NCBI GenBank assembly: GCA_020632155.1
Contig: JACKGE010000002.1
Coordinates: 91,685 to 155,684, forward strand
Source of the DNA: Candidatus Nomurabacteria bacterium
GTDB lineage: Bacteria; Patescibacteriota; Minisyncoccia; Phycocordibacterales; UBA918
DNA: 64,000 nt
Direction: 5' to 3'
Both the position numbers and the translations under genes were made by a program. How positions within the stretch are numbered: position 1 is the stretch's first letter; every line of letters begins with the position of its first letter. This document shows positions 3,067 to 63,200 of the stretch, piece by piece. The notes beneath the pieces were generated by a model, which had not been told where the DNA came from, did no database searches, and saw nothing but the letters and a program-made list of their open reading frames with translations.

Positions 3067-3068
3067 GG

Positions 3069-3663: not shown

Positions 3664-3996
<333 letters not shown>

Positions 3997-3999
3997 CTA

Positions 4000-38127: not shown

Positions 38128-38137
38128 AGGCTATCTA

Positions 38138-41160: not shown

Positions 41161-41173
41161 TTGCTCAAAGCTG

Positions 41174-42337: not shown

Positions 42338-42487
42338 ATAAGCTCTCGTTGTATTAACCTACCACGTGCGCACAAGGCGCAAGAGCATCAACGCGTGGTG
42401 TGCGTCTTTTGGGTCAAGTCTCCACTCCCGACCCCGATGCTAGCGCAGTAAGTATATCTGCGTTCATAACACTCGGCTGCTAGTGTC

Positions 42488-42585
42488 TTCCAGCACCACT
42501 TTTTACAGCACGTCTACACATCCACACCGCCTATACAATACAGACAGCGAAACTAACAAACGTAACTGCAAAAAGTGGTGCTGGA
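42488..42585. repeat. 19-bp inverted repeat (1 mismatch) flanking a ~58-bp core in the 393-bp leader region
   Basis: CCAGCACCACTTTTTACAG at 42488-42506 pairs with CTGCAAAAAGTGGTGCTGG at 42567-42585. This may be a structured RNA in the 5'-UTR of the 387-aa gene or a MITE-like remnant. Confidence 0.4.
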
Positions 42586-42707
42586 CCAAGTGGTCTAAAG
42601 GCCACCTTTTGAAGCAGATACACTTTTATTGTAGCCTACTCACACAATGAAATGCGTATTCGTATTGTGAACAACATGTCGAAAGTCGTGTTTTTTAAAA
42701 CCAATGA

Positions 42708-42734
42708 ATAAAACCCTCCTAGAGAGGGTTTTAT
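42708..42734 (-). terminator. hairpin terminator overlapping the stop codon of the dockerin-protein gene
   Basis: ATAAAACCCTC-ctaga-GAGGGTTTTAT is a perfect 11-bp stem; a U-rich tract follows on the minus strand. Confidence 0.5.
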
Positions 42735-44900: not shown

Positions 44901-46751
44901 TTAGAGGCCCCATTCAGCTGGCTCACTAGCTACAGCTGTGAAAGTGTTTTCACCCGTATAGAGGCCAGCCAACGTGATCGTACCCGGAACTGCAATACCC
45001 CAGTAGGTTATGCCCGTAGCTTGAGTAGACGTGGCTTGAGATTTCAATACGTTAAGCTCCAGTTCTTGCGGAGTTGTTGAGGAAAGATCGGTACCTGATC
45101 CGTATGACAAGGCGGAGGTTCCAAACTCTTGTGAAAAATCAGGAATAGTTGAAGTGGCTGAAGATGTACACGGTGTCACGCCAGAATACGTTGGACACAT
45201 AGATGCTCCCGACAGCTCTTGGTCAAGACCAACGTTACCGGTTGCTGCAACAGTAGTAGTGGCAGATAACGTACCAGTGTCGGTGCCCGGTTCGAGCTCA
45301 CCGTACGGAATGGTGGCAGTGTTAAGAGCCATAGCGAGCAGGCTGTTGAGCTCTTGACCGGTCGAACCAACGCTGTACGTACCAGTAGCAAAGTCATCAT
45401 CAATTGGGCTTACTGCCGCTACCCAGTTTTCAGTGTTGTAGTACGAAACTGTTGAAGTGCCGTCTGTTGAGTCAGCAATGTACCAAAGTGGGAATGTACA
45501 ATCGTATATTTGAGTAGTGTCAGATGGACCAGTACAGCTGGTCGAAGAGGCGGTACACGAAAGGTTCCAAATAGCTGAACTGACCCCACTTGGGTAACAG
45601 TTGTTAGCATTGTACGAACCAGACGTACCATCACAGGTTGATGAACCAACACCGGAGCGGAAAACAGACAGTATGTATCCGGTAATCTCATCGCCAGCAG
45701 AGGCATTCTCACAACTGTTATTGTCAGTAGCAGTAAACTGAAGTGTAAAACCGGTAGTCTCCCCTGCTTCCTGTGTAAGTGTAATATCGGAACCACCATT
45801 AAGCGTTATGGCTGCTGGTGACACAGACGGAGCTACGTTACTGACAGACAGCGTTGAGTCTGAACCTTGGGTAGCACCAGTTGCCTCATGTCCATGTTCG
45901 TCAACAATGTATCCATACGCAGTATAGTCTTGGTCTTGGGTCGGGATAACTATTGTATATGAAGCCGTTTGGTCTCCGGTTGATAGTGTCGAGGTGGCTA
46001 GTGTGCCGCCCGCACCACACTGATTGGTGCTGGTGTTGTAATCTGGATCGTTACAAACAACAAGCTGCAGTGTGTCAGCCGTGTCTATAACGTCAGCGTC
46101 AGAGGAGCTGGCGTAGAAATTAACTACCGAACCCGGTCCAGCCGGTGAATCATCATAGAACAACGTGAACGTTGGTCGATGATTTACATAAAATGGCGAG
46201 GAGTTTGTGGCGTTTAAACCAGTACTGTAGGTTGAGTTACAACGCGCATTAGTGTCGATAGCGTCACAGATCCAAGCCACCCAATCATTCTCTTCCACAA
46301 AAGCTTCTGTAGTGGTTGTGGCGGCACTAGCCTGTACGCCACTGGCTGTGCTGGCAGAGACAGCCCATAGTGTTGCTCCGGCACCACACTGCGGATCGAC
46401 AACGCTCGTTCCCGGCGTTGGTGTAGCATTCGTACTACAAATGAGAAGCTGGTAGTTCTCACTGTTTGAGTCCGTCGCCGTACCGACCCATGTTACGGTG
46501 TCACCCGAGTTAGTTGGAGTTGAGGTGGAGGATTCCGTTTGCTCGTAAGCAAGCTCCGTCCATTGTGGCGGGGTGTTCAGCACCGTTACTGAAGTAGTAG
46601 CGGTACTTTGGGCCTCAACGGTTTTGAATTCTTTACTACCGAGGTTTAGCAAAAAAATGAACGCAAAAACGAGCACTCCCATGAGCGTCGTCAAAACCGT
46701 CACCTTTCCGGCTGTGCTAAGCGGCAGCTTGTGGCTCTCGTTGTACAACAT
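44901..46751 (-). CDS. secreted protein (616 aa) sharing an N-terminal repeat-type module and a ~300-aa C-terminal module with the giant 4232-aa protein
   Basis: N-terminal TM/signal. The C-terminal region (AAITLNGGSDITL...DNNSCENAS...WYIADSTDGTSTVSYYNTENW...GITYWGIAVPGTITLAGLYTGENTFTAV) is collinear with the giant protein's C-terminus (GAVTLNGGNDIDL...DNNSCYIS...YYFADPTDSGSTYDGQEW...EVYWGIAIPFGTASNPHTGNNTFYAI). Confidence 0.75.
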   Translation of the reverse strand: MLYNESHKLPLSTAGKVTVLTTLMGVLVFAFIFLLNLGSKEFKTVEAQSTATTSVTVLNTPPQWTELAYEQTESSTSTPTNSGDTVTWVGTATDSNSENYQLLICSTNATPTPGTSVVDPQCGAGATLWAVSASTASGVQASAATTTTEAFVEENDWVAWICDAIDTNARCNSTYSTGLNATNSSPFYVNHRPTFTLFYDDSPAGPGSVVNFYASSSDADVIDTADTLQLVVCNDPDYNTSTNQCGAGGTLATSTLSTGDQTASYTIVIPTQDQDYTAYGYIVDEHGHEATGATQGSDSTLSVSNVAPSVSPAAITLNGGSDITLTQEAGETTGFTLQFTATDNNSCENASAGDEITGYILSVFRSGVGSSTCDGTSGSYNANNCYPSGVSSAIWNLSCTASSTSCTGPSDTTQIYDCTFPLWYIADSTDGTSTVSYYNTENWVAAVSPIDDDFATGTYSVGSTGQELNSLLAMALNTATIPYGELEPGTDTGTLSATTTVAATGNVGLDQELSGASMCPTYSGVTPCTSSATSTIPDFSQEFGTSALSYGSGTDLSSTTPQELELNVLKSQATSTQATGITYWGIAVPGTITLAGLYTGENTFTAVASEPAEWGL

Positions 46752-46835: not shown

Positions 46836-48044
46836 CTATTCATATCGAATGGCATCAAGCGGATTTAGTGTCGCAGCTCGCCGAGCCGGGAAAATACCCG
46901 TCAAATATCCCACTCCGGCGGAAAACATGGCGATAAAAAGCAAGAACATAAAAGGAAATGAGAACAATTTGACCGCTTGCCCACCGAACTGGCTGGCCAC
47001 CAAGTTAAGGAGGAGATTGATGGTACTACCCAGCACCACACCCATTATGATCCCCGAAAGGCCTCCCAAAAATCCCACCACGATGGATTCCGAGACGAAC
47101 AACCATTTGATGTCACTTGGTGAGGCACCGATAGTACGCATGATTCCGATCTCTTTGGTACGTTCAAGCAAGGTAACGGTCATAGTATTGAACATACCAA
47201 TAGCTGACACCACAAGCGCAATACCACCAAAGACTGCCAAGACTGCCTGCACACCTTGGAAGATCTTAGACGCTTGTTCTACTGTCTTTGAAAGCGCTGT
47301 CACGCGATACCCCGCTTCAATAAGCTGCTCTTCAACAGCGCCTAAAAACTCATTGGTATCAACACGGACCTGAATACGTTCGTATTCTTCAATGCCAACA
47401 TGGGAACGCAATTCCGGTAGCATCATAAGGGCGTTGAGCACACCCTCTTCTTTGGTAATACCACGCACGGTGTACTCTTTGTCGATCAATACCTCAGAAA
47501 CGTCACCAGTACCGTCATCAAGTGGAACCAACAAGCGAAATTTAACCTTTTGTCCGACAAAGGAAGCGGCGTCTTCTATACCAAAGAGTTTAAGTACTGC
47601 CGGAGAGAGCATAACAGTATTTTGATCATCAAGGTCTTCGTCGGTAAACACCTCACCAGCCGAAGCAGTGACACCGGCGTAGCGCAAATAAGCCGGTTCA
47701 GCACCCTGAATGAATACATTACCGGTAAGACCCTTATATGTAATAAGGGCTGGGAAACGAGCTAATGGAGCGGCATCAAGTACGTGCTCTTTTTGTTCAA
47801 ACTGTACTACCGTCTCTGATGTGAGTCTAAGATTTTGCGCGCCGGTCGCTGACACTCCAAGCGAAAGCAGTGTCTCACCAAACACGATCTGTTCGAGAAT
47901 GATCTGCTGCAAGCCAAAACCAAGCCCTACGAGGACCACCACCGCTCCAGTACCAACACCCATACCCAAAATAGTAAGCCATGTTCGGAGCGGATTGGTT
48001 TTGAACATTCGAGTCGAAAGTTGTGCGAGGTCTCGGGTACGCAT
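46836..48044 (-). CDS. ABC transporter permease, FtsX/MacB type (N-terminal TM, periplasmic MacB_PCD-like domain, 3 C-terminal TM)
   Basis: 402 aa. The topology and C-terminal FtsX-like TM bundle (IGIMRTIGASPSDIKWLFVSESIVVGFLGGLSGIIMGV...) match MacB/LolC-type permeases. Confidence 0.75.
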   Translation of the reverse strand: MRTRDLAQLSTRMFKTNPLRTWLTILGMGVGTGAVVVLVGLGFGLQQIILEQIVFGETLLSLGVSATGAQNLRLTSETVVQFEQKEHVLDAAPLARFPALITYKGLTGNVFIQGAEPAYLRYAGVTASAGEVFTDEDLDDQNTVMLSPAVLKLFGIEDAASFVGQKVKFRLLVPLDDGTGDVSEVLIDKEYTVRGITKEEGVLNALMMLPELRSHVGIEEYERIQVRVDTNEFLGAVEEQLIEAGYRVTALSKTVEQASKIFQGVQAVLAVFGGIALVVSAIGMFNTMTVTLLERTKEIGIMRTIGASPSDIKWLFVSESIVVGFLGGLSGIIMGVVLGSTINLLLNLVASQFGGQAVKLFSFPFMFLLFIAMFSAGVGYLTGIFPARRAATLNPLDAIRYE

Positions 48045-48050
48045 ACTGAA

Positions 48051-49373
48051 TTAACTCTTATAGCTTACATCAACACCTTGAGCAATAAGCTTTTCGAAGT
48101 AGCGAGTCAAAGAATCAGCTTCTTTCTCTGTCAAAGATAACCCTCCGGTTGTCACACCTTTACTCAAGGACTCATTAAAATCATCTTCACCAGCCACACC
48201 AGTGACTCGGTCAGCAATGAGCTCCACTAAATTCTCATCTTGTTTTTTAGACAACGTAAGGCGGTGACTATGCAGCAAATGGTCACGCATACGCTCTGCC
48301 AGTTGGTGTTGATTGAAAAAGAGAGTGTCGTGTCCTTGGCGCGCGCGAAAACGTCTGATGTCGTCTGCTTGTTTGATGATATTAAGTGAACGATCAGCCA
48401 TCTCTTTGGCTGTTTTTTCGTCCATGCCTACCCCTCCCTTTTCATACGGCAAAATAAGCGAACGAATAAAGGCTTTTTTATCCACTTTACCGGCAATAAG
48501 AAATCCAAGTGAGCGCTCTAGGCGAATTATTTGGTCAAACGTATACTCTTGGGTCAAGTAGTTGGTCATACTTTTGACGCGCAAGGTATCAACCGAGTCG
48601 TACGGATACAGACGAGCCAGTTGCTCAAGCTCAGTTACAATGGTCTCCCCTTCTTTGACCGGTTTGATCTGCTTGCGTTGTGGGTTTACGACTTCACGCA
48701 CGATAAAGCCGTCTTTCAGATAGTACACGCGATGGGCGTAAGAAAGGTGGGCAGCGTTGTGTGAGACCATGATAATGGTGCGCTTATCAAAGGTGTTGAT
48801 CTCATCTATTTTGTCCATCACTTGCTGAGTTGAGACCGAGTCTAGGTTACCAGTCGGTTCATCCGCCAAAAGAATTTTTGGATCATTAACCATGCTGCGA
48901 GAAACCGAGACACGTTGCTGTTGACCTCCCGAAAGCATGGCTGGGATCTTATGTGACACATGACCCACGCCAAAACGATCTAAGAGTGATTGTGCGCGTC
49001 GTTCACGAGTGGTCTTGTCAGCATCACAAAAGATCATTGGTAGTGCCACATTATCGAGCACTGACAATGATGGAATGAGATTAAACTGCTGAAAGATGAT
49101 GCCCATGACATACCGCTGGAAGTAGACTCGCTCTTCTGGCGGATATGAATAGATGTCGTCGCCACGAATAAGTAGCGTCCCTTCAGCCGGAGGCAGTGAA
49201 CCCTGAATGGCATACATAAGAGTGGATTTGCCGGAGCCAGATGCACCAAAAAGGATGATGTACTCACCCTCATAAATATCGGTATTCACGCCTTGCAGCG
49301 CCTTGAATTCGTTTGATTTACCTTTGTTGTACGTGATTGCAAGGTCACGACAAATAATAAGCGGTTTAGCCAT
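48051..49373 (-). CDS. ABC transporter ATP-binding protein (MacB/LolD-type NBD) with ~200-aa C-terminal extension of unknown function
   Basis: Walker A GASGSGKSTL, signature LSGGQQQRVSVSRSM, Walker B LLADEPTGNLD, and H-loop SHN. Residues ~235-440 are extra and alpha-helical/charged, with no recognised motif. Confidence 0.8.
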   Translation of the reverse strand: MAKPLIICRDLAITYNKGKSNEFKALQGVNTDIYEGEYIILFGASGSGKSTLMYAIQGSLPPAEGTLLIRGDDIYSYPPEERVYFQRYVMGIIFQQFNLIPSLSVLDNVALPMIFCDADKTTRERRAQSLLDRFGVGHVSHKIPAMLSGGQQQRVSVSRSMVNDPKILLADEPTGNLDSVSTQQVMDKIDEINTFDKRTIIMVSHNAAHLSYAHRVYYLKDGFIVREVVNPQRKQIKPVKEGETIVTELEQLARLYPYDSVDTLRVKSMTNYLTQEYTFDQIIRLERSLGFLIAGKVDKKAFIRSLILPYEKGGVGMDEKTAKEMADRSLNIIKQADDIRRFRARQGHDTLFFNQHQLAERMRDHLLHSHRLTLSKKQDENLVELIADRVTGVAGEDDFNESLSKGVTTGGLSLTEKEADSLTRYFEKLIAQGVDVSYKS

Positions 49374-49621: not shown

Positions 49622-51121
49622 TTATCCACCGATGTTGCGGACCCAACCGAAGGTTGCTTCAAAGTTCTCGAGGATGAGGTCAATGATGTTCTTTTCCTGG
49701 ATCGGAGTAAAGAGCACAAAGTTTTCACTCTTGATGGCATTACCGGCCTCATCTTCACAATCAAGCCAAAATTGATAGACCGTTGCCGGTGCAAAGTCGA
49801 CAATGACCTCAACGTGTTTTTCGGTGTAATTGATCTGCTCCGGTTCAATGACCGTAGGGTCAACGCCTCCAGCTACACCTTCTTGGTAGGTCATTACACA
49901 ATAAGCTGGTTCATCTGTTCCCCACTCAACAATGGTCTGGATACGCGACTCACTACCAGGAAACAGTGTTGACTCGTTTGTAACGTTTGAAATGATCGGT
50001 GGTGAGGTATCGCGTACTGTAATGAACGTGATCGGCTGACTCTTCACTCGATCGCCGCCGGCGTTCTCTGCTATCACAAAGGCCACGTACCGTGTACCAA
50101 GTGTGAGGTCAGAGATACGCATCTGATGTGAGGTTGCGAGTGTTGGTCGACCTTTTGAGTTCTGTGCTCCAGTTGAAAGGTCTTGATATTCAATGGTGGC
50201 TTTGGCTGGCACCGTAGTGTCCCACGCTAGTGTAGCCGCATTTTCCTCGACCTTTACGATACGTAAGTTTCGTATCTCTGGCAGAGAGGCTTTGGTCTGG
50301 AACGTAAAGTCTCGGCTTGAACCAGTAATACCATAGGAGTCAGTTGACCGTACTTGGAAGTGATACTCCGTAAATGGCTCAAGTCCAATGAGGCGAACTT
50401 CGTGATCAGTGGTGGGAGCGTCAGTACTGGACTGCGAGTAGACGTACGAGCTCGGCACATACTCAGTTGATGGAGAAAATTCCACGACTGAACTAGCGGG
50501 GCGGTCAGTGGTCCACTTTACGATAGCCGATGTTGTTTCCGGAATCACCGTTGGCGGTCCAACGATAGTAAGATCTTCGGTGATGCCTTGAATGGCTTTT
50601 ACGATCTCATTTTGTATCTCCTGTAGTTTTGATACCTCGGTGATCTCTTGGATCTGCTCGGTGATCTCTTGTACAGTCGGTTGTGACGTAGTGGTTGAAT
50701 CTGTTGCTTCCTGTCCCTGACCCTGTCCTTGGGCTGAGTTTTCGCCGTCACCGGACTGTGGCGAGCCGTCAAGTTGAATCTTGTAATCAGCTGAAATACC
50801 TTGGTTGCCGTCAGCATCAGAGGAAAGAACACGGAAGTAGTAGGTACGGCCAGGCTCAAGTGACTCGAGACTGATACTGTGCTGTCGTTTGTCAGTCCCT
50901 GGTACACGCACAATACCGTAGTCTTCCGAAAGGCCATAGTTAATGAGTGAATCCGCGTCCTCGTCGGTCTCCCAGGTAATGGTCATACTACTATCAGAGT
51001 CTTTGTTGACCTGCACATTACTGATGACTGGTGCTTCTTCGTCAGCAAAAGTCGGTACTGGCACTGAGCTCATTACCGTAAAAACAAACAGCACAACGAT
51101 ACCGAAAGACCGCTTGTACAT
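49622..51121 (-). CDS. secreted protein with four fibronectin type III domains
   Basis: Signal peptide. The FN3 repeats contain TYYFRVLSSDADGNQG, TEYHFQVRSTDSYG, TRYVAFVIAENAGGD and VYQFWLDCEDEAGN, and a Q/E-rich linker follows the first. Confidence 0.7.
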   Translation of the reverse strand: MYKRSFGIVVLFVFTVMSSVPVPTFADEEAPVISNVQVNKDSDSSMTITWETDEDADSLINYGLSEDYGIVRVPGTDKRQHSISLESLEPGRTYYFRVLSSDADGNQGISADYKIQLDGSPQSGDGENSAQGQGQGQEATDSTTTSQPTVQEITEQIQEITEVSKLQEIQNEIVKAIQGITEDLTIVGPPTVIPETTSAIVKWTTDRPASSVVEFSPSTEYVPSSYVYSQSSTDAPTTDHEVRLIGLEPFTEYHFQVRSTDSYGITGSSRDFTFQTKASLPEIRNLRIVKVEENAATLAWDTTVPAKATIEYQDLSTGAQNSKGRPTLATSHQMRISDLTLGTRYVAFVIAENAGGDRVKSQPITFITVRDTSPPIISNVTNESTLFPGSESRIQTIVEWGTDEPAYCVMTYQEGVAGGVDPTVIEPEQINYTEKHVEVIVDFAPATVYQFWLDCEDEAGNAIKSENFVLFTPIQEKNIIDLILENFEATFGWVRNIGG

Positions 51122-51226: not shown

Positions 51227-54200
51227 TTAGTCTCCGATAGCGTAGAAGGTATTGTTTCCGGTATGTGGGTTACTGGCGGTACCAAACGGAATGGCAATAC
51301 CCCAGTACACTTCGTCTTCAACTGGCGGCGTTACCGCGGTCGGCTTACCTAGATCAACCTCGTAGTTTGTACTGGTAGTGGCAAGGTTCGTACAATAGAC
51401 GCAAGAGCTATAGTCAAACGTACTGGTGGCAAAGCGTTGCTGACTAGCGTCAATAGTTGAACCACTACCGTCTGAAAGATCACTACCTACGATCTGCACA
51501 TCAAGATCATCATTACCTAAGTTAACAAGAGTGGTAGTGGCGTTGTACGAGCCAGTATCATCATTGACCGCCAGTGAGCCATATGAGATGGAATTCTCTA
51601 CATCAAGTGCGCGCAGCGTTAACATCTCCACTCCGGGCGCTGACCCAAACGCAATATTGCCGGAACCGTCAACTACCTCAAGGTAGGCGAGCCACTCTTG
51701 ACCATCATACGTACTGCCGCTATCAGTTGGGTCAGCGAAGTAGTAAATGTCGGCAGCGCAGCTAAGTGTACAGGAGCTACCAGCACAAGCTGAGAAGCTA
51801 CACTGTGGTGCGGTACTGATGTAACAACTGTTATTATCAGCCGTGCAAGCTGCTCCGGCGCCACTACGATATATGGTTGAAGTAGCGGTAATGAGGTCTG
51901 CGTAGCCGTTAAGATCGGTCACGGTAGCCGTAGCATAGATGGTTGTTGTGGCTCCAATAGCAAGGTCGATATCATTACCACCATTTAGCGTCACCGCCCC
52001 AAATGTCGGACTAAACTGGAGTGACAACTCAGCCACACTTGTGTACGAATCGAGTTCAGTGCCGTCGTTGGTGACCCGCAGACAGTACGCTTCATCAGCC
52101 ACGTTAACAGTTGGAGTCAACACATATTCCAGCTCAGTGTACTCATTTTGGAGCGTATCGATAGACGTACTCTTATTAGCGGTATTAGCCACAATACGAC
52201 CGGTGGTAAAGGTGCCATTTACGTCCGATAAGTGATCGGTCGTGGTTTGGTTATTGGTCACCGTACTGGAGGTGGCCATACAAATGGCACTACTGCCACA
52301 ACTAGCTAAGACTGGCACTGCACTGTAACTACCGCTACCGACTGCTTCGCAGCTTGGTGAGGCGCCTTTTGGTGCCGCCTCCAGCTGGAATTGCTGACCG
52401 GTAATATCAAGTCCTGAGTTTTCGACTGCAAAGCGCAGGCGAGCCACATCACCGACCTGATAGGCACTGGCTGGCGTATCTATTGCAGCTGCCCACGAGG
52501 CGCCGCCAGCTGTTTGCTCAGCCCCAAGATAGACCGTTGGATCAGTGGTAACTCGTGGGTACGAGATGTAACTGTCCCAACCACCATTCATGCCCCAGTA
52601 GGTAAAGCCCATACCACCAGTTGTGTAGCTGCTGTCACTTACACTAAGCGTTGCAGCAACACTGTCGGTTGGATCATACACAGTAATAGAAATGGTGTCA
52701 TCAGTTTGCCAATCAACTCGCACATCATACCAACCGGTAGTGTAGGTAAGGGTTGAGGAAGCGAGAATAGTACCCGAACTTTCCGTATCGATAACATTTT
52801 TAACTAAGGAGACCCGGTCGGTACCATAAAGTTCAAAACAAATACCGTAGTTATTGTTGTTCGTTCCCGGTGTCTGTACGCCAAAGAGTGTACAGACCTC
52901 ATCGGCTGCTCCGGCTGTAGCGTCTACATACTGTCGGTAGCGAATGACTTCACCTTGTGCCACTAAGTTGCCGGTCTGGAATACACCATCGGTTGCACGA
53001 TCACTTTCATGGCCACTGGTATCAAGACCGTAGTTACCACCATAATTAAAGCTGGTGCCAACCGTAAAGAGTCCGGTGTCACCGCTGTACTCACTAAGAG
53101 AGCCGTCTTCAAAGTCATCAATGAAATTCATGACCGCATCACCATCACTGGCCGTATCAACTGTACTGCTACCGTAGTACATGTAGAGTGTTGTGTACGC
53201 TGAGGCTGGTAAGCTCGGGACCGATACCCATACTTCTGCATCGCTACCAGCATTGACCCGCTCAGTCCAGTACGATACCGGCGTGCCGGAACTATCCGTA
53301 AAGCGAAGGTCATCAAAGTCTGCTTGCATGTCTGCGTCGTACGGAACGGTAACGAGAACAGACGTCGTAGCGTAGGTTGTGTTGTCATTATTTCGCAGTC
53401 GCACACTGGCTCGCTTGGTCCAGCCATTGTCATACCAGTCACTATCCGGAGCACCTTCACCACCATCATCGAGTCGCCAGCGATAGTGTGTTTGTTCAAT
53501 AAGAAGACATGCACTGTCCTCCCAGCGGATAGAACCACAGTCATCCGTGCCATCAATATCAAAGTCTTCTCCAGCCAGATTGCCCGTGTGGCCAGTGAAG
53601 CGCCACGCGTTGCTGCTGGTAGCAGCTAAGTTAACGTTTATGCCGGTAATTGCCGTAGTAGTGGCAAAGCGCATACCAGTGAATATCTTGGACGCGTTGG
53701 CGTTTAACGTTTCGGTCGCTAGTGTGATGAGGCTACCGCCTGAAACTGCCAGTTCGAAGTCACCATTTGAAAGATTGGAAATGGTCGGCGTACCGGAGAG
53801 GTCAAGACCGTTCGCATCAAGATTGCGGAACTGGTAGTAGTTGGCGTTTAACGTGCCACTGGTGACACCGAGTGTATACGTACCACTACCTTGATTGGTG
53901 ATCAAAGTTGCGTTGCCACTACCACCGACAATATTGAGTGTGCCACCATCGACAGTAGTGGTTGCCCCTCCCGCAATCTGTACCGTTACAGCGCGCGGTG
54001 TAATACTCGTACCATCAAAGTCAGTTGCGTAACTCCAATACTCAGTAGTGGTACTGATATGGAAATCTCCAAAGATGAAGAGTGAGCCATTCACTCCGGC
54101 ATGCCGCTGTGAATACAGTGAGCTACTACCATCAACTGTGGTAGTAAGGGCACTTGAATTCCATAATCTAATATCACTATTTGCTCCAATACTTAGTATG

Positions 54201-57200
54201 TTGTATTGATCACTGCCGAGAGATTTACTGTTAACGCTGTATGCATTGGCACCATCGAGGTACAGCGTGCTGCCCGTCCACGTGGTGGCGGAACCACCAA
54301 GATTATTAGTAAAGACACCGCCGACATACATCGTAGTTCCTGACTGCTGGACATAGGCAGTTGCAGCCGACAGAGTGAAGTTGTTGGTAGTGGTCGCGTC
54401 AGTTTGCATGGTCCAACTACCGGTACCAGAGACAACCAAGTTATAGAAGTCGTTGCCTCCAGGATAGATGTTTTTACCAGCACCAGAAGAATTAAAGAGG
54501 ACCGTACCCGAAGCGTGCGCAAAGGTGCCGGCAGTAGCATCAAACGAACCGCCAACTGACAAAGTACCAACAGCAGATGTAAAGGTGCCAGTGCCGAGAG
54601 TAAGACTACCACGCAGGGTTGCACTGGTGTCGAGTACCGTAACATCACTACCGCCGGAAACAACAACAGAGCCAAGGTCAGAGCCACCAAATTGCAGTGA
54701 AGTGGCGCCCGTAGCTCGGTAGAGATCAAGTGTATTGTTGTTATACGTAACCGTACCAGCGTTACTGAAGTTGCCCCCGACCGCGTAGATACCACTTGGC
54801 AACGTAAGACTTCCTGCAGAGATGGTCACATTGCCGGTTGAAGTGGCGTTGGTGTCAGGCATGGTCCATGCGCCACCCGTACCAGCAAAGGTGGTAGTAG
54901 CGAGGTCAGAACCACCAAGACGAACTACGTTACCCCCACTAGTGGCGGTAAAGATCATCGGTGAGGCACTGGCGTCAAAATTACCGCCGGTATTGTTAAG
55001 CGAACCAGAAAGAGTAGTGGTACCGGTTGGTAAGGTAAGGTCACCACTGGCGATCGAAAGGTCATGAGCAGTTAAACTTGAGTCAGTAACAGACCAATCT
55101 CCACTACCGATAAAGTCAATATCGTAGAAACTGTCGTTGTTCACATCTATGGTCTCGCCACTTTGGTCAGAGGTAAACTCCACGGTTGAGTTAGCAGCTT
55201 CAAATGACGCCCCGGCGTTTGCGGTAAACGAGGCTCCGACCGACAAAGTGTCGCTGCTGCTCATAGTGAGAGTGGCGCCGTTATAAAGCTGGAGCGCACC
55301 GTCGTAACTTGAACCTCCTCCCCCGCCACTTATAGTCACGTCACCGCCCGGATCAAAACTCTTGTTGGTCCAAACAATGAGCTTGTGGTCAGCCGGTAGC
55401 GTTAAGCTGTCGGTGCCGGCATCTACTGCTGTAAATGGTATATCACCGTCATCGGAAGAGTCCCAGACTGCCATATCTTCGATGTTGATTGCACTGATAT
55501 TTTCGTGCCGTACGATCACCCGCTGCTCGTAGATATCCATATTACTGATATTGGATATCGGATCGACCGATACCGTTGCGCCACTACCAACTCCATTATC
55601 AATGTAGACAGTGAGTGTATCGTTTGGACTAAAGGAGATACCACTAATACTGTACGCTCCGGTACCAACAGCACAGCTGGTGGTGTATGAAGTCAGACCA
55701 GCCACTCGTAAGTGTACGTTTTGTGTTACACCATTACAGATACCAACACCAGACGCGGTACTACCTTCATCACTGTAGACATGGCCGGAAATGTTGATGA
55801 CCGCCGCTGAGTCGTCCCATACAATTTCACCCGGATCACCACTGTCATTATCATTTCCTTCACCATCAAAACCACCACTATGGTTCGTAAAGCGCCAGCT
55901 ACTGACACTGATGCCACTTACCGTTACGTTGCTGGCACCACTGACCCCGCCGCCGAGACGGAAGATGTTGTTGGTAAAGTTCTTGGCCGGATTTTGATCA
56001 ATAACTGAACCGGCAACAGTCATACTACTGGCGCCGTTTAGGTCCGCTGACAAGTCAGTAAAGCCGAGAGTGGTTACGGTTGGGGTGCCGGTAAACGAGA
56101 GACCAGTACTGTCGATATTGCGGATTGATACGTACTGCCAAGTGGTGCTGGCTGTGCCCCCGACTGTAAGACCATAGGTACCCGACCCTTGGTTAGTAAT
56201 GGTAGTGGTGGCAGTAGTAGTGCCCTTTACTGAGAGTGTCCCGCCGGTGTATGTGGCGCTGGCGCCACTGGCAAACTGGACATCAGCAACACGCGGACTA
56301 CCACTAATGTCCGCACCATCAAAGTCGGTGAGGTAACTCCAATGATCGCTGTCACTCGCCTGCATGTAATCACCGTAGATATGTAAGAGTCCATCACTAC
56401 CGCCATGGTCCATCGAGTAAAGACCACCGCCTGTTTCGGTCACAACGCTACTGTACGTGCTGTCCCAGAACTTTGCGCTGGTACCACTGACAATATGTAC
56501 CGTGTCATAACTGTCTCCTACCCCTTTTGGATTGACTGTGAATCCACCACCAAAGAGACTGAGCGTACTGCCGGTCCACGTAGTACCGCTGTCTCCCGTG
56601 TTGTTAGTAAAGGCGCCGCCAACCGCTAGGGTCGTACCACTTTGGGCCACAAAGTTTGAGCTGGTTGCCAAGGTCCACGCGCCAGTTGAGGTAGCGTTTT
56701 CAGTCAGTGTACCGGTGCCGGAGCCGGAGAGCGTCACTCTACCAAACGAAGCACTGCCCGGTGCGATCGAGTAGGCATCGCTGCTGACGAATTCAACGAG
56801 GCCGCCCGACACAGTAAAGCCGCCGTCGTTATCATAACTACCCGAAAGCTGTAAGGTATTACTACTGCTTTCTATATAGGTACCATTGGCACGAACTGTC
56901 ATATCCCCGCCGACTGCTACTAGTGGATCGAGGGTATTGGCGTTGACAGTAGTGGTAGTAGCACCGCCAATAGACAGGTTATGTACGATGTTGATACCGG
57001 TTGAACCAAGTATGACCGTTTGTGGAGACAACTCAGCATTAAGATCAAGATTGTAGTAGTTCATTGGGTAAACCGTGCCCGAACCGCTATACCGAACCGT
57101 ACTGGTGTCGTATGAAATCGAACCGTTGTTTACCACTACGGTACCATTGCCACGCAAGTTCCAGCCGCCACTGCCGAGAAGGAGTGTATGACCACTTTGT

Positions 57201-60200
57201 GTTCGCAGCACGCTGGTAACGGTAGTAGTAGCGGTGCTAGCTCTCGTTGTTGTTCCGACCAGACTGCCATTACCAAAGGTCAGACTGGCAAAGGTCCACG
57301 GTGTGTTGCCGCCAAAGGTGTTGGTTTGCTGTAGTGTCACCGTACCACCGGTCATTGCTACTACTCCATCACCGGCCATAGAACCGCCACTAATAGAAAT
57401 ATTGCCGGAACCAGTTAGCGTACCGTCGGTAACAGTGACATCGTGGGCCACCGAGAGCGTAGCGGCGTTGGTCCACTCTCCCCCGCTACCATTGAAGGTG
57501 ACGTCATACAAGTTCTGTGTTGATGATGCGCTAATGAAGTGTCCGGTCGTGGTTGCATTAAAGAGCACGAGCGACGTACTCGGACTAAAGAGTGCCCCAC
57601 TCTCTGCGCGGTAGTTGCCACCAATGGTAAGGGTCTCACCGGCCGCCGCTTCAAACGACGCTGTCGGTGCCAAATGAAGTGATCCGTCATAGGCGCTCGG
57701 TGTACTATTGCCGAGTAACGTTGTATCACCGTCTGGCGCAAAGGTCATACCATCCCACACGTATAACTCGTTGCCGGCAAGGACAGTCAGCGTATCTGGC
57801 GCGCCCACGCTTGCCACAAACGGAATATCAGAGTCATCGGTAGCGTCAAAGAGGGTCATATCTGCGATCGTTAGCGGTGTGTCATCTTCGTGTCTGACAA
57901 TCACCCGATCCCCATAGAGGTCGAGTCCACCAATAGTGTTGGTGTCGGGACTATCAGGCTTAAGCGCAAACTGCATGGAGTGTGACTCACTGCCCGTACC
58001 ACCGGCAGTGATCTCAGAATCACCGGTTGCTCCGGCAGTAGTCATGAGCCGTGAGGCCACACTGAGGTCATTACCACCGCTGACAATGTCTTCAGCTACC
58101 GTTGTCCACGCGCCGCCCGGCATATTGATATTGCTATCTCCGTCCATGTACCAAACCGCGATTGCCAGGGCATTATGTACCGTTGTCGTGATACTTGGTG
58201 CGCTTGGAGATGCATCATTGGCATGATTGGTCCATGAACCTTCGACATCAAATGGGTCTCGAAGGTCAACCCCATCAAATGAACCCATCCAGTAGCTATA
58301 GTTTTCTGTACTGGTGTCATTTGAGGTAAAGGTGTAACTGGTTGGTTCAGTTGAGACATCGTCAACAGTGCGATACCACAAACGGCTGTAGATAGTGCTA
58401 CCACTTCCACTTGGCGTTACGCCTTCTGGACCTGGTGTCCAACCGGCTGGTGCAGAGATATCAAACTCATCGTCTTTACCGATTATGAGTACGAGGAAAT
58501 CATCTTGAGCAGTTCCTGGGCGGTCCACAATGAACGTGCTGGCAGCGTTAACACTGCCAATACCAGTACTGCTGAAACGAAGTGAGACATCAGCTGGGGT
58601 CGTATCAACCACATTGATAATCGGTGTACGGGTGACCACCGCAGCGCTCGTAGTACCACCACCGTAACTAGCTCGCTTGAGGGCAAATTGGCCGGAGTTG
58701 GTATCGTCTGAAGTAGCATCGATGGCGGAGAGGCTGGCATTACCGGTCACTCCGGCGGTAGCCATAAGACGAGTTGCAATACTAAGGCTGTTTCCGCCAT
58801 TGACGATATCCTCAGTTTGCGTGGTCCATGAACCACCCGGCATAGTGACATCGGTATCATTGTCTACATACCATGCAGCAATAACCAGCGAACCATTTGT
58901 GACCGTAGTGATAGAGGTAGCTGCCGGTGTCTGGGTATTGAGCTGTGTTGTCCACGTCGGTGTGACATCAAATGGGTCACCGAGGTCTACTCCACTAAAC
59001 GATCCAATCCAGTAACTGTAACTTTCGGTGTCAGTATCAGCCGAGGTAAAGGCGTACGCAGTTGGTTCAGCTGTGACATCAACCACCGGCTTATACCAAA
59101 GACCAGTAAACTGTTGGTTGTTGTTTGGGAGTCCAAGTGTATCGGCTTCAGTCCAGCCAGCTGGTGGATCAATAGCCAAGTCGTCATCTTTACCAAAGAC
59201 AGCGACAAGAATATCACCATTACTGACACTTGGGCGGTCAACGATTACTGTACCTCCACTGACAACAGTGCCGCTTCCTGAGTCTTGATCTTGCAAGGTA
59301 ACCGCACTTGGATCAGCGGCGTACGCGTCATGGTCAAGGTATACCGTTACCTTTGGATCACCTTCATAAGACACATCACGAACGGTATAGCTACCATCTT
59401 CAGGACTACAGGCAGCACTGGTGGTGCTACTGCCGTCGATGACCACGGTCACCACCGGTGAAAGTCCGTCACAAGTTGGAGCGCCAAGTGGTGTACTGCC
59501 ATCATCAGCATAGACCACACCGGTCACGGTAATACTGTGCTGACTATCGTCCCACTGAATAGCTCCGGGGTCGCCATCATCGTTGTCATACAGCTCACCG
59601 TAGGTGTCGCCACTGCCGTTTCGCATCCACCAGTATGAGCTGGCAAGGCCACTGAGCGTCACGTTAATTGGGCTGGTACCACTGGCAACAAAGCCGAGAC
59701 GGAAGAACTGTTGCGCTGGATTATTATCAATGACATCGGCAGCTACTGTCATGGCGCTACTGCTTGTGCCGATGGCAAACGTACCGTCAGCGATATCAGT
59801 CACCGTTGTGGTGCTACCACCAAGTTGCCAACCGTTACTGCCAAGACCGGAAAAGGCAAAGTACTGCGCAGTGATAGTACTGCCAAAGGTGGTGAGGTCA
59901 AATGCACCATCTATAGCTTCAATGGTGGTTGACGCCCCGCCGTCACCAACCAAATTAAAGCCGTACGGCAGCGTAAGCGCTGAGCTACTAGCGATATAGA
60001 CCGACACCGCTCGCTCGCTACTGCTGGCACTAAGATCCGTACCGTCAAAATCAGTGGCATACGACCAGTATTCCGTAGCGCCACGACCGTCATAGTCACC
60101 ATATATATAGAGAAGGCCATTACTTCCGCCATAGTCGGGCAGATAGAGCGAACCAGTATCTAAGACACTGCTTGAAGCAATGGTGGTATTCCACATGACG

Positions 60201-63200
60201 ATGTCAGCATCTTGCTCTACCACCACTGTGTCATACACATCTCCAGTTGAACTTTTGTCATGAACTGTATGATCATTGCCATAGAGTCGCAAGGTACTAC
60301 CGGTCCATGTGGTAACACTGGCAATATCATTGGTGAAATTGCCACCAACACTTACCGTTGCGCTACTACTGGCAGTGAAATCATTTGCAGCAAGAAGGTC
60401 GAGGTTGTTAGCGGCGTCAATATTTTCGGTCACCGTCCAGCCACCACTTGGATTATTAAAGGAGAGGTCATAAAAGACATTACCGCCGGCAGCTACCGTC
60501 TCGCCGGTATCATTACTATCAAATATCACCGCTCCGGTACCAGCTTCATACAGACCCTGCGCCAGGAATGATCCAGCAATAGTGAAGTTGCCCGACGGAC
60601 CAATAACTTGCACTGAGCCGATAGAGACGTCACCAATAACATCAACACTGACATCGGTAAGTGTCAGACTGTCAACAGCACCAAAACCGGAACTGGTGGC
60701 ATAGAAGGTAGTAGGACTGCCTTGATTTATATATTCCGCATTGACCCACGCAGACGGCCTCGTGGTAGTGGCAAATCGAAGCTCGTCAATATAGCCGTTG
60801 TAGCTACCAGCAGTGGTGTAGCGTCCGACTTCAAGCGGACCAGTGTTAGACGGGTTATTGACGGTCTGATTAATGACACCATTGGCAACTCCATCCTCAA
60901 ACATGTACATATTAAGACCGGACGTTACCTCACCCATGTTAAAGAAGTGATGCCAGCCGGCGGAGTGACTAAAGGAGTAACTATAGGTACGGCCGAAGTA
61001 GAAGTACGCAGCTGAGCCACTGTACCATGGCATGAATGAAATACGGTTTGGTGTGGCTCCGGTACCCCACTGGTACACACCTTCGGTGTTAGAAGTCGTT
61101 TGATAGTACCAACCGGATGAGACGATATTGTCTCCCCCGCTCCACGCCCAGTCGCTATCGTCAAGATATCCACTGGCGGTGCCGGTAAGATCAAGGGCAG
61201 AACCCATAGTACCGGTTGTAGTGGCTTGTCCGGTACCATTGGCGGCAAGGTCTTTCCCGTGACCGGAAGCATCAACTGCCCCCACACTTGGGTCATCTTC
61301 AAAGTGATACACTGCTTCGTATTCGCTCCAAACGGCATAGGCACCATACGGATCACTGGCTGCGTAACCACTGGCGGTACTGTTGTTGTGATAGATATAG
61401 AAGATGGTATCAGAGACGTTGGAAATAGATGGAGCCAAGAAGTGAAGTTCTCCTGTCATGGCAACCGGATCGAACGAGACCAACTCATACGGCACTTCAG
61501 TTTGACCATCACTGGTGGTAATACGTATGTCGCCACCATCAGTGCGAACCTCGCTCCAGAAACTACTACCCAGTGTAGAGAGATCCACATACACGGGGAA
61601 ATTAGTCAGTGACGAGGAGATGTTGGCTGAATCAACAGTGATACCTTTACGCGATAACCATGAAGTGTCATACCATCCAAATGATGCTGCTAACGATCCG
61701 AAGATCACGTCATTAAATGACGATCCATTAGTACGGATGGTCTGATCTGCATTCGGCAAAAATCGTACCAGTGCGCTGTTTGCATCAAAGGCGCCGCCGC
61801 CAGTGACATTAAGTCCTCCGCGGATAACGAGAGTGGTATCAGGGAATGTTACATCACCATTACTGATGACCATACTACCGCTTGTGGTTGCATTACTGTC
61901 AGTAAAGGTCCAGTCACCACTACCCGAGAACGTAACGTTGTACAGCTGGTTGTAAAGTGACGTACCAAGAAGTGTTACCACCTCACTGCCACTACCGGTC
62001 ATTTGCAAGGTGGCGTTGTTGTGGAGGAACGTACCACCGGTATTAAGGAACGAGCCACCAACACTGGTGATACCAGACGGCAACGTAATGGTACCGGTAG
62101 CGATAGTGAGGTCACTGAGTACCGTGAGGTTGGCTTCGGTGAAGTAAATATCAGTATCAGGATCATTGAAGGTAAGCTGATAGAATGACGAGCCATTGGT
62201 CTTAATGATGTGACTAGCACTCGCGCTGCTATCTCCGGGGTCATACGTCTCGACACTGCTAGTGGCGTAAAAAGTAGTTGGGGTCTTTTGACTCACATAC
62301 TCAGCATCGATCCAGGCTTCCGTACGACTCGCCATAGTGAAGCGAAGTTCATCAATATATCCTTCATAGGAACCGGTAGTACCTTGTCGACCGATCTGCA
62401 AGTTACCACTATTGGCGGTCCCCGCCACTGTCTGCGTGACTGTATCACGCAAAATGCCATCTTCATAAATGGTGTTTGAAGCCCCACTAGCAGCAAAACC
62501 TTGTGTGGTGAAATGATGCCAACTAGTGACACGCGCGAAGGTATAGGTGGCCCCACTCGTTACACCAAAGTAATGGAGTCCGTTATCGCCCGAATACCAC
62601 GGCCGAAACTCAATGCGATCTGGGCTGTTAGTGGTACCCCACGCCCAGAGAGCTTCGTTACTGGCGGCTGATTGGTAGTACCAACCGGATGAAGTCAGAT
62701 CGTCTCCGCTGGTCCATGACCAATCGGTGTCATACATAACGCCAGTAGCCGTGCCAACAAGACTAAGAGCAGAACCTAACGCGCCGGTTGTGGTCGATTG
62801 ACCGGTACCACCTGGAGTGAGATCTTTACCATTTCCAGACGCATCCGGCACCTCAACAGTTGGATCGGCTTCAAAGTGGTACACCGCTTGATACTCGGTC
62901 CAGACAGAGTATGCTCCGTACGGATCGCTATCCGAATAACCAGCAGCTGAGTTATTGTTGTAATACACATAGAACGTTGTGTTAGTGGCGCTCGAAAGTG
63001 ACGGCGCTAAGAAGTGAAGTTCACCCGTTTCGGTGCCGGTATTAATGGCAACTAGGTCTATCGGTACTTCCGTTTGTCCGTCTCCTGTGGTCATTCTGAT
63101 ATCGCCACCGTCTGTGTTTACGTTACTCCAAAAACCACTGCCGAGTGTAGAGAGATCCAGATAGACTGGGAAATTGGTGAGATCACTATCGATCTGACTC

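What the first reader, a model, noticed from the sequence alone, without database searches (positions are those of the whole stretch)
51227..52150. Conserved C-terminal module (YWGIA[IV]P...G.NTF.A) shared by otherwise different secreted proteins: putative new sorting/anchoring signal
The last ~300 aa of the 4232-aa protein and of the 616-aa protein (44901-45800) are collinear. Matching blocks are [AG]A[IV]TLNGG[NS]DI.L, DNNSC, [YW]Y[FI]AD[PS]TD.G[ST], and the terminal YWGIA[IV]P...TG.NTF[YT]A[IV]. The 387-aa and 2124-aa proteins share a second, related C-terminal block (TPRE[IV]...Y...[IV].TP.F / VVYLAIPVF). None of these proteins has a C-terminal TM helix or LPXTG, so the conserved aromatic C-terminal module is a candidate recognition element. 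It could serve the adjacent MacB-type exporter, serve cohesin/dockerin partners, or drive lipid/glycan attachment.
Basis: seen in the sequence. Interest (0 to 1): 0.7.

Follow-up and report, generated by a model that had tools for sequence, protein, structure and literature searches.

The report
C-terminal attachment module of giant CPR adhesins
The conserved tail shared by the giant protein and the 616-residue protein is a folded pair of immunoglobulin-like domains, not a short signal; it ends thousands of surface proteins of ultra-small Patescibacteria and always travels with one membrane-anchored partner gene, so it most likely fastens these huge adhesins to the cell.

Summary

The "second, related" block (387-aa and 2124-aa proteins) is a separate family with no detectable similarity to module 1. 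It matches, below cut-off, NCBIfam CPR_Pam_pilin_C, the donor-strand pilin domain of the Pam pilus described in 2026.

The window carries a gene cluster of about 15 genes. The upstream half of its gene order recurs in 65 Paceibacteria-type genomes, and three loci show the rest. The p324 gene directly follows the 616-aa gene. It encodes a signal peptide, two beta domains and a TM anchor. It stays adjacent to module-1 genes in five distant loci that lack the MacB pair.

Best reading: module 1 is an attachment domain that docks on this anchored partner, probably by strand complementation as in Pam/chaperone-usher pilins or WxL–WxLIP. The docking itself is inferred, not shown. Verdict: a new variant of a known kind.

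The parts
51227..64000 (-). Giant surface protein. It is truncated at its N-terminus by the window edge: >=4,256 aa here, 6,579-7,004 aa in orthologues. It has a DUF2341 domain at residues 3560-3634 and module 1 at its C-terminus.
   Evidence: ORF list. Frame open to base 63997. Pfam DUF2341 E 1.8e-29. Orthologue lengths.
51626..52018 (-). Module 1, domain D1. It is a Cys-rich Ig-like sandwich, residues ~45-175 of the 307-aa segment. Conserved motifs include TLNGG, TVTDLNGY, NNxCY and ADPTD.
   Evidence: AF2 model with pLDDT 93.3. Conserved Cys columns. D1 lies upstream of the CTD in 140 of 150 representatives.
51230..51625 (-). Module 1, terminal domain CTD-1. It is a seven-strand Ig-like sandwich, residues ~176-307. 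It ends in the YWGIAIP...TGNNTFYAIGD hairpin.
   Evidence: AF2 and DSSP. The profile finds 2,131 clusters, and 148 of the best 150 have it within 12 aa of the C-terminus.
44901..46751 (-). 616-aa secreted protein: signal peptide, N-terminal region, then module 1. It is the second module-1 gene of the cluster.
   Evidence: BLASTP E 9e-23 to the giant's tail. HMM hit for CTD-1. A p616-type module-1 ORF is present in 48 of the 65 related loci; the other contigs end before reaching it.
44928..45854 (-). Module 1 (D1 + CTD-1) of the 616-aa protein, residues ~300-608.
46566..46601 (-). Conserved mature N-terminal strand ATTSVTVLNTPP (residues 51-62) of the 616-aa protein. It is a candidate donated beta-strand; this is inference.
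   Evidence: It is the most conserved 12-residue window among 50 orthologues, 0.86 against a mean of 0.60. It is nearly invariant among four orthologues that are ~55% identical overall.
43850..44824 (-). p324: signal peptide, two beta-rich domains, a C-terminal TM helix (residues 295-313) and a basic tail. It is the proposed membrane-anchored partner of module 1.
   Evidence: Hydropathy. More than 1,335 homologues at 60-77% identity. It follows the 616-aa-type gene in every locus with enough flank. It is adjacent to module-1 genes in five distant loci.
41174..42337 (-). p387, a Pam-type pilin candidate. It has a signal peptide, an N-terminal sandwich (residues 40-184), a conserved linker (185-198; nt 41744-41785) and a C-terminal domain (199-387; nt 41177-41743) that ends in invariant TPTF.
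   Evidence: AF2 pLDDT 89. 50 of 59 family members hit NF058581 CPR_Pam_pilin_C, best E 1.3e-6. Conservation profile.
28580..34954 (-). 2124-aa secreted protein. Its last ~170 aa (nt 28583-29092) are module 2, a Pam-pilin-C-like domain. No p387-type linker lies upstream of that domain.
   Evidence: NF058581 E 1.2e-6, covering model positions 3-148 of 148. BLASTP E 1e-12 to the p387 CTD, with the alignment starting at p387 F199.
27571..28575 (-). p334, a paralogue of the p324 family: signal peptide, two beta domains and a TM helix (residues 276-294). It lies directly downstream of the 2124-aa gene.
25953..27710 (-). p585b. Its ectodomain is paralogous to p334, followed by two TM helices and a C-terminal LytR_C domain.
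   Evidence: BLASTP E 3e-11 to p334. LytR_C E 3.9e-10. Its Nomurabacteria orthologue follows the p387 orthologue.
46836..49373 (-). MacB-type ABC pair: an ATPase of 440 aa (48051-49373) and a MacB_PCD/FtsX permease of 402 aa (46836-48044). It sits between the two module-1 genes.
   Evidence: Pfam. Synteny. Absent from the distant loci.
49622..51121 (-). 499-aa secreted protein with several fn3 / Pur_ac_phosph_N domains. It is a conserved member of the cluster.
   Evidence: synteny.
35025..43846 (-). Cohesin/dockerin set of the same cluster, interrupted by p387. It comprises p371 (dockerin, 42731-43846), p364 (39888-40982, TM), p585 (cohesin + TM, 38138-39895), p220, p247 (dockerin, 36725-37468) and p530.
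   Evidence: Pfam. Paralogy by BLAST. Synteny.

Best explanation
Module 1 is a folded C-terminal attachment module made of two Ig-like domains, D1 and CTD-1. It defines a large family of surface proteins specific to Patescibacteria.

Proposed pathway: the giant adhesin and the 616-aa protein are exported by Sec. Their C-terminal module is then held at the cell surface by the membrane-anchored two-domain protein p324, which is encoded next to them. The most likely contact is beta-strand complementation. This is how Pam and chaperone-usher pilin domains are held by TM-anchored or periplasmic chaperones and by neighbouring subunits. It is also how WxLIP is predicted to hold WxL domains.

The 616-aa protein carries the same module plus an unusually conserved N-terminal strand. 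It would act as an adaptor or stalk subunit between the giant adhesin and the anchor.

Module 2 (p387, p2124) is a parallel Pam-type set in the same cluster: a major pilin, a large tip-type protein, and two anchored chaperone-like proteins (p334, p585b).

Shown: homology, the predicted fold, the strict C-terminal position, the absence of other anchors, and the co-occurrence.
Inferred: the physical contact with p324, strand complementation, and the order of subunits.
For: Homology and family size:
- Real, non-chance homology.
- 120 word-indexed homologues and 2,131 representative clusters.
- The named sources carry Patescibacteria labels: Kaiserbacteria, Parcubacteria, Paceibacterota, Nomurabacteria.

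Fold and position:
- The AF2 model has pLDDT 93.3 and shows two beta-sandwiches.
- The module lies within 12 aa of the C-terminus in 148 of 150 representatives, on proteins of 93-7,696 aa. None has a C-terminal TM helix or LPXTG.
- In distant loci a Kelch propeller is inserted inside CTD-1, yet the final hairpin still ends the protein. This is the behaviour of a structural domain.

Partner gene:
- p324 has a signal peptide, a beta-rich ectodomain and a C-terminal TM helix.
- It is a paralogue of p334 and p585b.
- A p324-family gene follows the 616-aa-type gene in all loci with enough flank. The strict distance rule counts 42 of 45; the three misses do carry it in the gene lists.
- It is adjacent to a module-1-only protein in five of five distant loci, L003, L004, L073, L074 and L075, where no MacB pair is present.
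- The minimal set there is a large module-1 protein, a small module-1-only protein and an anchored two-domain protein. WxL clusters have the same logic, and AF2 predicts a WxLIP strand inserting into WxL (PMC10599100).

Pam-type set in the same cluster:
- The neighbours p387 and p2124 match CPR_Pam_pilin_C.
- p387 shows the Pam pilin layout with a conserved linker that is unstructured in the monomer model.
- In the Pam system, PapD-like chaperones carry a C-terminal TM helix (bioRxiv 10.64898/2026.03.03.709456).

Candidate donor strand:
- The N-terminal strand of the 616-aa family is its most conserved segment.
Against: - Its chaperone-like or WxLIP-like fold therefore rests on architecture alone.
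- Pfam, NCBIfam and PDB sequence searches of the p324 family gave nothing significant. The only hint is one of 26 members hitting WxLIP_HBD at E 0.036.
- Module 1 has no sequence link to Pam pilin C: 0 of 73 members at E<=1; hhalign is not significant.
- CTD-1 is predicted as a seven-strand sandwich that looks complete, which does not demand a donated strand.
- The tails after the last strand vary in length, unlike module 2, which ends at an invariant Phe.
- Gene adjacency is not proof of contact.
Confidence: 0.5

Rival explanations
1. Module 1 is a very divergent Pam-type pilin domain. The giant protein would then be the tip adhesin of the p387 pilus, accepting the p387 linker strand, much as FimH sits on type 1 pili.
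For: - It lies in the same conserved cluster as p387.
- CTD-1 and the p387 CTD share the order 'I.[YF]G.L – strand ending in N.G – strand – ... – terminal hairpin'. The only hhalign match falls on that I.YG.L segment.
- Pam tip pilins have an acceptor domain and no linker.
Against: - 0 of 73 module-1 members hit NF058581.
- The cluster already holds a large protein with a true Pam-like C-domain, p2124.
- Distant loci keep module 1 and p324 without any detectable p387-type gene within the fetched flanks.
Confidence: 0.15
2. Module 1 is the element recognised by the adjacent MacB-type ABC transporter, for export, extraction or release.
For: - The ABC ATPase and MacB permease sit between the two module-1 genes.
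- They are present in almost every orthologous locus with enough flank: 48 of 52 by a strict distance rule. By the gene lists, only L021 lacks the pair.
Against: - That co-occurrence is whole-cluster synteny among orthologues, so it does not single out the module.
- All five distant loci that keep module 1 and p324 lack a MacB pair within the fetched flanks.
- p616, p387 and p2124 have N-terminal hydrophobic signal-like segments, which points to Sec export.
- The module is a ~260-aa folded unit, not a peptide signal.
Confidence: 0.1
3. Module 1 is a passive basal stalk, or a domain that binds the cell wall or a glycan without any protein partner. p324 would have an unrelated surface role.
For: - Both domains look complete in the model.
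- Ig-like domains are common fillers in giant adhesins; this rests on established knowledge.
Against: - The strict terminal position in 148 of 150 representatives is not expected of a filler domain, nor is the retention of the terminal hairpin around inserted domains.
- Standalone proteins made only of a signal peptide plus the module exist.
- p324-family genes stay adjacent across deep divergence.
Confidence: 0.2
4. Module 1 binds one of the TM-anchored cohesin-type proteins of the cluster (p585, p364), acting as an unconventional dockerin.
For: - Cohesin + TM proteins and dockerin proteins are conserved in the cluster.
- They also occur in distant locus L003.
Against: - Canonical dockerins are on other proteins, p371 and p247. 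Those already account for the cohesins.
- No dockerin or EF-hand match was found in 73 module-1 members.
- L004 and L075 have module 1 and p324 but no cohesin gene nearby.
Confidence: 0.05

Closest known systems
Pam pilus system of CPR bacteria: PamA/PamB pilins, TM-anchored PapD-like chaperones PamC/PamD, tip pilin PamT, anchor PamR (bioRxiv 10.64898/2026.03.03.709456; NCBIfam NF058581 CPR_Pam_pilin_C)
   Same: - Same superphylum.
- The cluster encodes a ~38-kDa secreted protein (p387) with an N-terminal sandwich, a conserved linker and a C-terminal domain that matches NF058581.
- A large protein (p2124) ends in the same domain without a linker, as a tip-type subunit would.
- Several neighbours have a signal peptide, two beta domains and a C-terminal TM helix.
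- An ATP synthase operon lies ~21 kb from the cluster end.
   Different: - Module 1, the subject of the finding, shows no sequence similarity to the Pam pilin C domain.
- Scores for module 2 are below the family cut-off (28.7 bits against 55).
- The lineage carries Paceibacteria-type labels, whereas Pam pilins were reported mainly from Saccharimonadia and Microgenomatia.
- The cluster adds a MacB-type ABC pair, cohesin/dockerin proteins and adhesins of 2,000 to 7,000 aa, none of which the Pam paper describes.
WxL / WxLIP (Csc) surface-protein clusters of Firmicutes (PMC10599100)
   Same: - Same gene logic: a large protein with N-terminal binding domains and the module at its C-terminus, a small protein that is essentially the module alone, and a conserved protein with two Ig-like domains plus a C-terminal TM helix.
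- Attachment is non-covalent, without LPXTG.
- AF2 there predicts a strand of the anchored protein inserting into the module.
   Different: - No Pfam WxL, DUF916 or DUF3324 match above noise.
- There is no dual Trp-x-Leu motif; CTD-1 has a single W-G-[IL].
- Module 1 has two domains, with a Cys-rich D1.
- The organisms are Patescibacteria.
Two-domain tip adhesins of chaperone-usher pili (FimH, PapG) and their PapD/FimC chaperones
   Same: - An N-terminal binding region is joined to a C-terminal Ig-like pilin domain that fixes the adhesin to the fibre.
- The chaperone has two Ig-like domains.
- Conserved terminal strands are present.
   Different: - There is no outer membrane and no usher.
- The candidate chaperone is membrane-anchored.
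- No PapD_N/PapD_C Pfam match was found.
Folded C-terminal sorting domains such as the T9SS CTD (Por_Secre_tail)
   Same: An Ig-like beta-sandwich at the extreme C-terminus of otherwise unrelated, often very large, secreted proteins.
   Different: - No TIGR04183 match to the module.
- No type IX secretion genes were seen in the window, and Patescibacteria are regarded as having a single membrane (own knowledge).
- Module 1 is three times larger and has two domains.
- There is no evidence of cleavage.

Membership tests
Pam pilin C-terminal domain (NCBIfam NF058581) | Match to the family profile at or above its curated cut-off (55 bits) | tested here: not met
   Module 1: no hit for p4232 or p616 and 0 of 73 family members at E<=1. 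Module 2 for comparison: p2124 scores 28.7 bits, E 1.2e-6, over the full model; p387 scores 18.3 bits; 50 of 59 p387 relatives hit, best E 1.3e-6. All are below cut-off.
Pam pilus system | [quoted passage not shown] | tested here: inconclusive
   p387 fits: sandwich at 40-184, a conserved linker at 185-198 that is unstructured in the model, and a CTD at 199-387. Module 1 proteins have D1 + CTD-1 and no evident inter-domain donor linker. The 616-aa protein has a conserved N-terminal strand instead. Whether the fold is truncated could not be judged without coordinates.
Pam pilus system | PapD/FimC-like chaperones that carry a C-terminal TM helix | tested here: inconclusive
   p324, p334 and p585b have a signal peptide, a ~260-aa beta-rich ectodomain and a TM helix, and they are paralogues. 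There is no PapD_N/PapD_C or other significant Pfam, NCBIfam or PDB sequence match.
Pam pilus system / chaperone-usher pili | Assembly by donor-strand exchange between subunits | not testable with these tools
   This needs multimer prediction or cryo-EM. Only indirect signs are available: conserved candidate strands.
WxL domain proteins | Pfam WxL (PF13731) match and two Trp-x-Leu motifs in the C-terminal domain | tested here: not met
   No WxL hit at E<=1 in the four proteins, in 73 module-1 members or in 59 module-2 members. CTD-1 has a single W-G-[IL] in YWGI.
WxL clusters | Cluster of at least one WxLIP (DUF916-DUF3324-TM) with a small and a large module-bearing protein | tested here: inconclusive
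   The gene logic is met. The DUF916/DUF3324 profiles are not matched, except by one of 26 members at E 0.036 for WxLIP_HBD.
Chaperone-usher pilins | Incomplete Ig fold resembling solved chaperone-usher pilins, with an outer-membrane usher | tested here: not met
Sortase substrates (LPXTG) and C-terminal TM anchors | LPXTG-type motif followed by a hydrophobic segment and a basic tail at the C-terminus | tested here: not met
   None in the four proteins. 0 of 150 representatives.
Dockerin modules | Pfam Dockerin_1 / paired EF-hand-like Ca-binding loops | tested here: not met
   Dockerin_1 is found only in p371 and p247. None was found in module-1 members.
T9SS C-terminal domain | TIGR04183 Por_Secre_tail match at the C-terminus, with type IX secretion genes | tested here: not met
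   No hit on the modules. There are only weak sub-threshold hits, on p324 and p585b rather than on the module.

The most novel reading that the evidence does not exclude
Paceibacteria-type Patescibacteria may possess a second, undescribed strand-complemented surface assembly, distinct from Pam pili. In it, a two-domain C-terminal module mounts adhesins of 6,000-7,000 aa on a membrane-anchored Ig-like receptor through a 616-aa adaptor subunit. A MacB-type ABC mechanotransducer in the same cluster would supply the energy for assembly or for passage through the wall.
Probability: 0.25. Interest if true: 0.8.

Novelty: new variant of a known kind. Interest (0 to 1): 0.6.

Why it matters
Patescibacteria (CPR) live attached to other cells, and how they hold on is largely unknown. 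This module marks thousands of their largest surface proteins. No Pfam or NCBIfam model matched it, so genome annotation does not see it.

Knowing that it is the conserved foot of these proteins, paired with one anchored partner, gives three things:
- a handle to find the adhesin repertoire of any CPR genome;
- a concrete pair to test for attachment (module 1 and p324);
- a second example, next to the Pam pili just described, of single-membrane bacteria that appear to fix fibres or adhesins by Ig-domain complementation rather than by sortase.

The conserved MacB pair inside the cluster also raises a testable question: does such assembly need energy?

Tried and rejected
- Sequence link between the two modules. 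I ran hhalign on full alignments and on separated domains, plus shuffle tests. Nothing was significant.
- Known-family assignment of module 1. I searched Pfam and NCBIfam with single sequences and with 73 members, and searched PDB sequences with single sequences and a profile. Only noise came back. Two members hit pilus_FilA at E 0.0011, which I treat as chance.
- The afdb50 fold library was not available.
- p324 family. Pfam on 26 members, a profile against PDB sequences, and phmmer of p334 and p585b gave nothing usable.
- Many ~350-aa 'proteins' among the hits looked like standalone modules. They start at an internal Met of the giant's sequence, so they are gene-calling fragments. Genuine standalone forms exist only among the distant relatives P0116-P0120.
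- Literature search for a description of this cohesin/dockerin/giant-protein cluster in Patescibacteria found none.
A closer subset worked. The 65 loci are therefore mostly orthologous, and their synteny is not independent evidence.
Full report
**Context.** All large ORFs lie on the minus strand. The region from 25.9 to 64 kb encodes a run of secreted and membrane-anchored proteins. The rest of the window holds housekeeping genes: an ATP synthase operon at 184-4818, uvrABC, tgt and ddl. The closest named relatives of the proteins are from Candidatus Kaiserbacteria, Paceibacterota, Nomurabacteria and Parcubacteria. The organism is therefore a Paceibacteria-type member of the Patescibacteria/CPR.

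**Observation.**
- The last ~300 residues of the giant ORF and residues ~270-607 of the 616-aa protein align with 31% identity, E 9e-23.
- The giant ORF is open to the window edge. Orthologues called on full contigs have 6,579-7,004 residues.

**What module 1 is.**
- With a 73-sequence alignment, AlphaFold2 gives pLDDT 93.3 and pTM 0.82.
- The model has two beta-sandwich domains. D1 is Cys-rich and covers residues ~45-175 of the 307-aa segment. The terminal CTD-1 has seven strands, covers ~176-307 and ends in the hairpin YWGIAIP...TGNNTFYAIGD.
- No Pfam, NCBIfam or PDB-sequence match exists for the module or for 73 of its relatives.
- A CTD-1 profile searched against 1.84 billion representatives finds 2,131 proteins at E<=1e-3 and 1,332 at E<=1e-10.
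- Among the best 150, the module ends within 12 residues of the C-terminus in 148. D1 lies upstream in 140. Lengths run from 93 to 7,696 aa, with 25 above 5,000. None has a C-terminal TM helix or LPXTG.
- Many ~350-aa hits are fragments that start at an internal Met. Distant relatives (P0116-P0120) are genuine small proteins made of a signal peptide plus the module.
- In loci L003, L073 and L074 a larger protein carries CTD-1 split by a ~280-330-aa insertion, a Kelch propeller. The final hairpin is still at the extreme C-terminus.
- The module is therefore a structural domain pair, not a linear signal.

**What module 2 is.**
- The C-terminus of p2124 matches NCBIfam NF058581 'CPR_Pam_pilin_C' over the whole model, E 1.2e-6, 28.7 bits against a cut-off of 55.
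- 50 of 59 members of the very conserved p387 family also hit it.
- That model stems from the Pam pilus of Ca. Mycosynbacter amalyticus. [quoted passage not shown] Its PapD-like chaperones have a C-terminal TM helix. It also has a linker-less tip pilin and a TM-anchored terminator (bioRxiv 10.64898/2026.03.03.709456).
- The p387 model (pLDDT 89) shows this layout: sandwich at 40-184, a linker at 185-198 that is unstructured in the monomer model, and a CTD at 199-387.
- The C-terminal strand (0.90) and the linker (0.83) are among the most conserved segments of the family, against a mean of 0.69. The family ends at an invariant Phe.
- p2124 aligns only from the first CTD strand onward, as a tip-type subunit would.
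- Fold searches with the p387 model give YweA/BslA-like domains, Gram-positive pilin domains and an archaeal TLP filament protein. No chaperone-usher pilin appears in the hits listed, and no Pam entry is in the PDB copy.

**Gene context.**
- Three contigs fetched through p324 homologues show the same order as the window. The order is: giant protein (DUF2341), fn3 protein, ABC ATPase, MacB/FtsX permease, ~620-aa protein, ~310-aa p324, dockerin protein, ~385-aa p387, ~350-aa protein, cohesin+TM protein, ~220-aa protein, dockerin protein, ~550-670-aa protein, ~2,050-aa protein.
- A scan of species-representative genomes returned 65 loci with the same order as far as each contig reaches.
- By a strict distance rule the MacB pair is present in 48 of 52 loci with enough flank, and a p324-family ORF follows the 620-aa gene in 42 of 45. 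By the gene lists, three of the four MacB misses do carry the pair, so only L021 lacks it. The three p324 misses also carry the gene.
- These loci are orthologous, so this is synteny rather than independent co-occurrence.
- The informative cases are five distant loci: L003, L004, L073, L074 and L075. Each has a small module-1 protein directly next to a p324-family gene, and none has a MacB pair in the fetched flanks.
- p324, p334 and the ectodomain of p585b are paralogues. Each has a signal peptide, two beta-rich domains and a TM helix. p334 and p585b follow p2124. The Nomurabacteria orthologue of p585b follows the p387 orthologue.
- So each module-bearing gene set has its own anchored two-domain neighbour.

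**Mechanism.** The best-supported reading is that module 1 is an attachment module docked on the anchored p324 protein. Three known systems work this way:
- Pam pili: a C-terminal pilin domain held by a TM-anchored chaperone and by neighbouring subunits.
- Chaperone-usher tip adhesins: a binding domain plus a pilin domain.
- WxL clusters of Firmicutes: a small WxL protein, a large protein with a C-terminal WxL domain, and WxLIP with two Ig-like domains and a TM helix. AF2 predicts a WxLIP strand inserting into WxL (PMC10599100).

A candidate donated strand exists. The mature N-terminus of the 616-aa family, ATTSVTVLNTPP, is its most conserved 12-residue window in 50 orthologues, 0.86 against a mean of 0.60.

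All of the following remain inference: contact with p324, strand insertion, and the order giant protein, then 616-aa adaptor, then anchor.

Against this reading:
- CTD-1 looks like a complete sandwich.
- It has no sequence or fold link to pilins.
- The p324 fold could not be predicted, and its sequence searches were empty.

**Rivals.**
- Divergent Pam domain placing the giant protein at the tip of the p387 pilus: possible, but without statistical support.
- Recognition by the MacB pair: disfavoured by the distant loci and by the Sec-type N-termini. The pair could still power assembly or wall passage.
- Passive stalk or wall-binding domain: fits the generic fold, but not the strict terminal position, the standalone forms or the conserved neighbour.
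- Cohesin partner: the cluster's cohesins already have canonical dockerin partners.

**Novelty.**
- Module 2 extends the Pam family, published in 2026, to a Paceibacteria-type lineage at sub-threshold scores.
- Module 1 and the p324 family matched no Pfam or NCBIfam model, and I found no paper describing this cluster.
- The principle is known: a C-terminal Ig-like attachment domain with an anchored Ig-like partner. The domain family, its scale, its link to 7,000-aa adhesins and the embedded MacB pair are not.
- Rating: a new variant of a known kind, of moderate to high interest.

Noticed in passing
window 63925-64000: The giant ORF does not start at the GTG at 63925. The frame stays open to the window edge, so the '4232-aa' protein is only the C-terminal part of a protein that has about 6,600-7,000 aa in related genomes.
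   Followed up: yes
L003:4510-6477, L073:2290-7485, L074:1-1371: In distant relatives the terminal domain of module 1 is interrupted by a ~280-330-aa insertion, a Kelch beta-propeller. The last hairpin ([FY]WG...G..T[FY]) still ends the protein, so the domain acts as a scaffold for a displayed binding domain.
   Followed up: partly
L004:256-789 and L075:134-667: A signal peptidase I gene (Peptidase_S26) lies just upstream of the p324-like gene and the small module-1 gene in two distant loci. This recalls the dedicated SipW peptidase of TasA fibres, which assemble by donor strands (own knowledge).
   Followed up: no
window 46566-46601 (minus strand): The mature N-terminus of the 616-aa protein (ATTSVTVLNTPP) is the most conserved stretch of that family, more conserved than the C-terminal motif the finding was built on.
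   Followed up: partly
window 48051-49373 (minus strand): The ABC ATPase of the MacB pair has 440 aa. The ABC_tran domain covers only residues 26-174, and the ~200-aa C-terminal extension has no Pfam match.
   Followed up: no
window 24850-25410 (minus strand): A Redoxin/AhpC-TSA family protein is encoded next to the cluster end. Module 1 has eight conserved Cys columns, so an extracytoplasmic thiol-disulfide role is conceivable.
   Followed up: no
window 25953-27710 (minus strand): p585b joins a p334-like ectodomain to two TM helices and a C-terminal LytR_C domain. This is an unusual fusion for a chaperone-like protein. Its listed TTG start overlaps p334 by ~140 nt, so the real start is probably further downstream.
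   Followed up: no
window 9826-12435 (minus strand): UvrA appears as two ORFs, 692 aa and 153 aa, separated by ~70 nt. The second carries the end of the second ABC domain. This could be a frameshift, a sequencing error or an interruption.
   Followed up: no
window 184-4818: An ATP synthase operon (a, c, b, delta, alpha and gamma subunits) lies ~21 kb from the cluster end. This echoes the Pam paper's report that ATP synthase genes co-localise with pam operons.
   Followed up: no
L032, L065, L068, L069; P0114: Some contigs that carry the whole Patescibacteria-type cluster are labelled Acidimicrobiales, Gammaproteobacteria or Nitrotoga in their records. These are probably mis-binned or mislabelled MAG contigs.
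   Followed up: no
window 41174-42337; alignment A2: The p387 family has more than 1,370 relatives of ~375-390 aa at >=50% identity. All 59 aligned members end at the same invariant TPTF, so the free C-terminus itself may be functionally fixed. Chaperones grip the pilin carboxylate in chaperone-usher systems (own knowledge).
   Followed up: partly
L007:4853-5362: One related cluster has an extra 169-aa gene with a type IV prepilin N_methyl motif, between the fn3 gene and the ABC ATPase.
   Followed up: no
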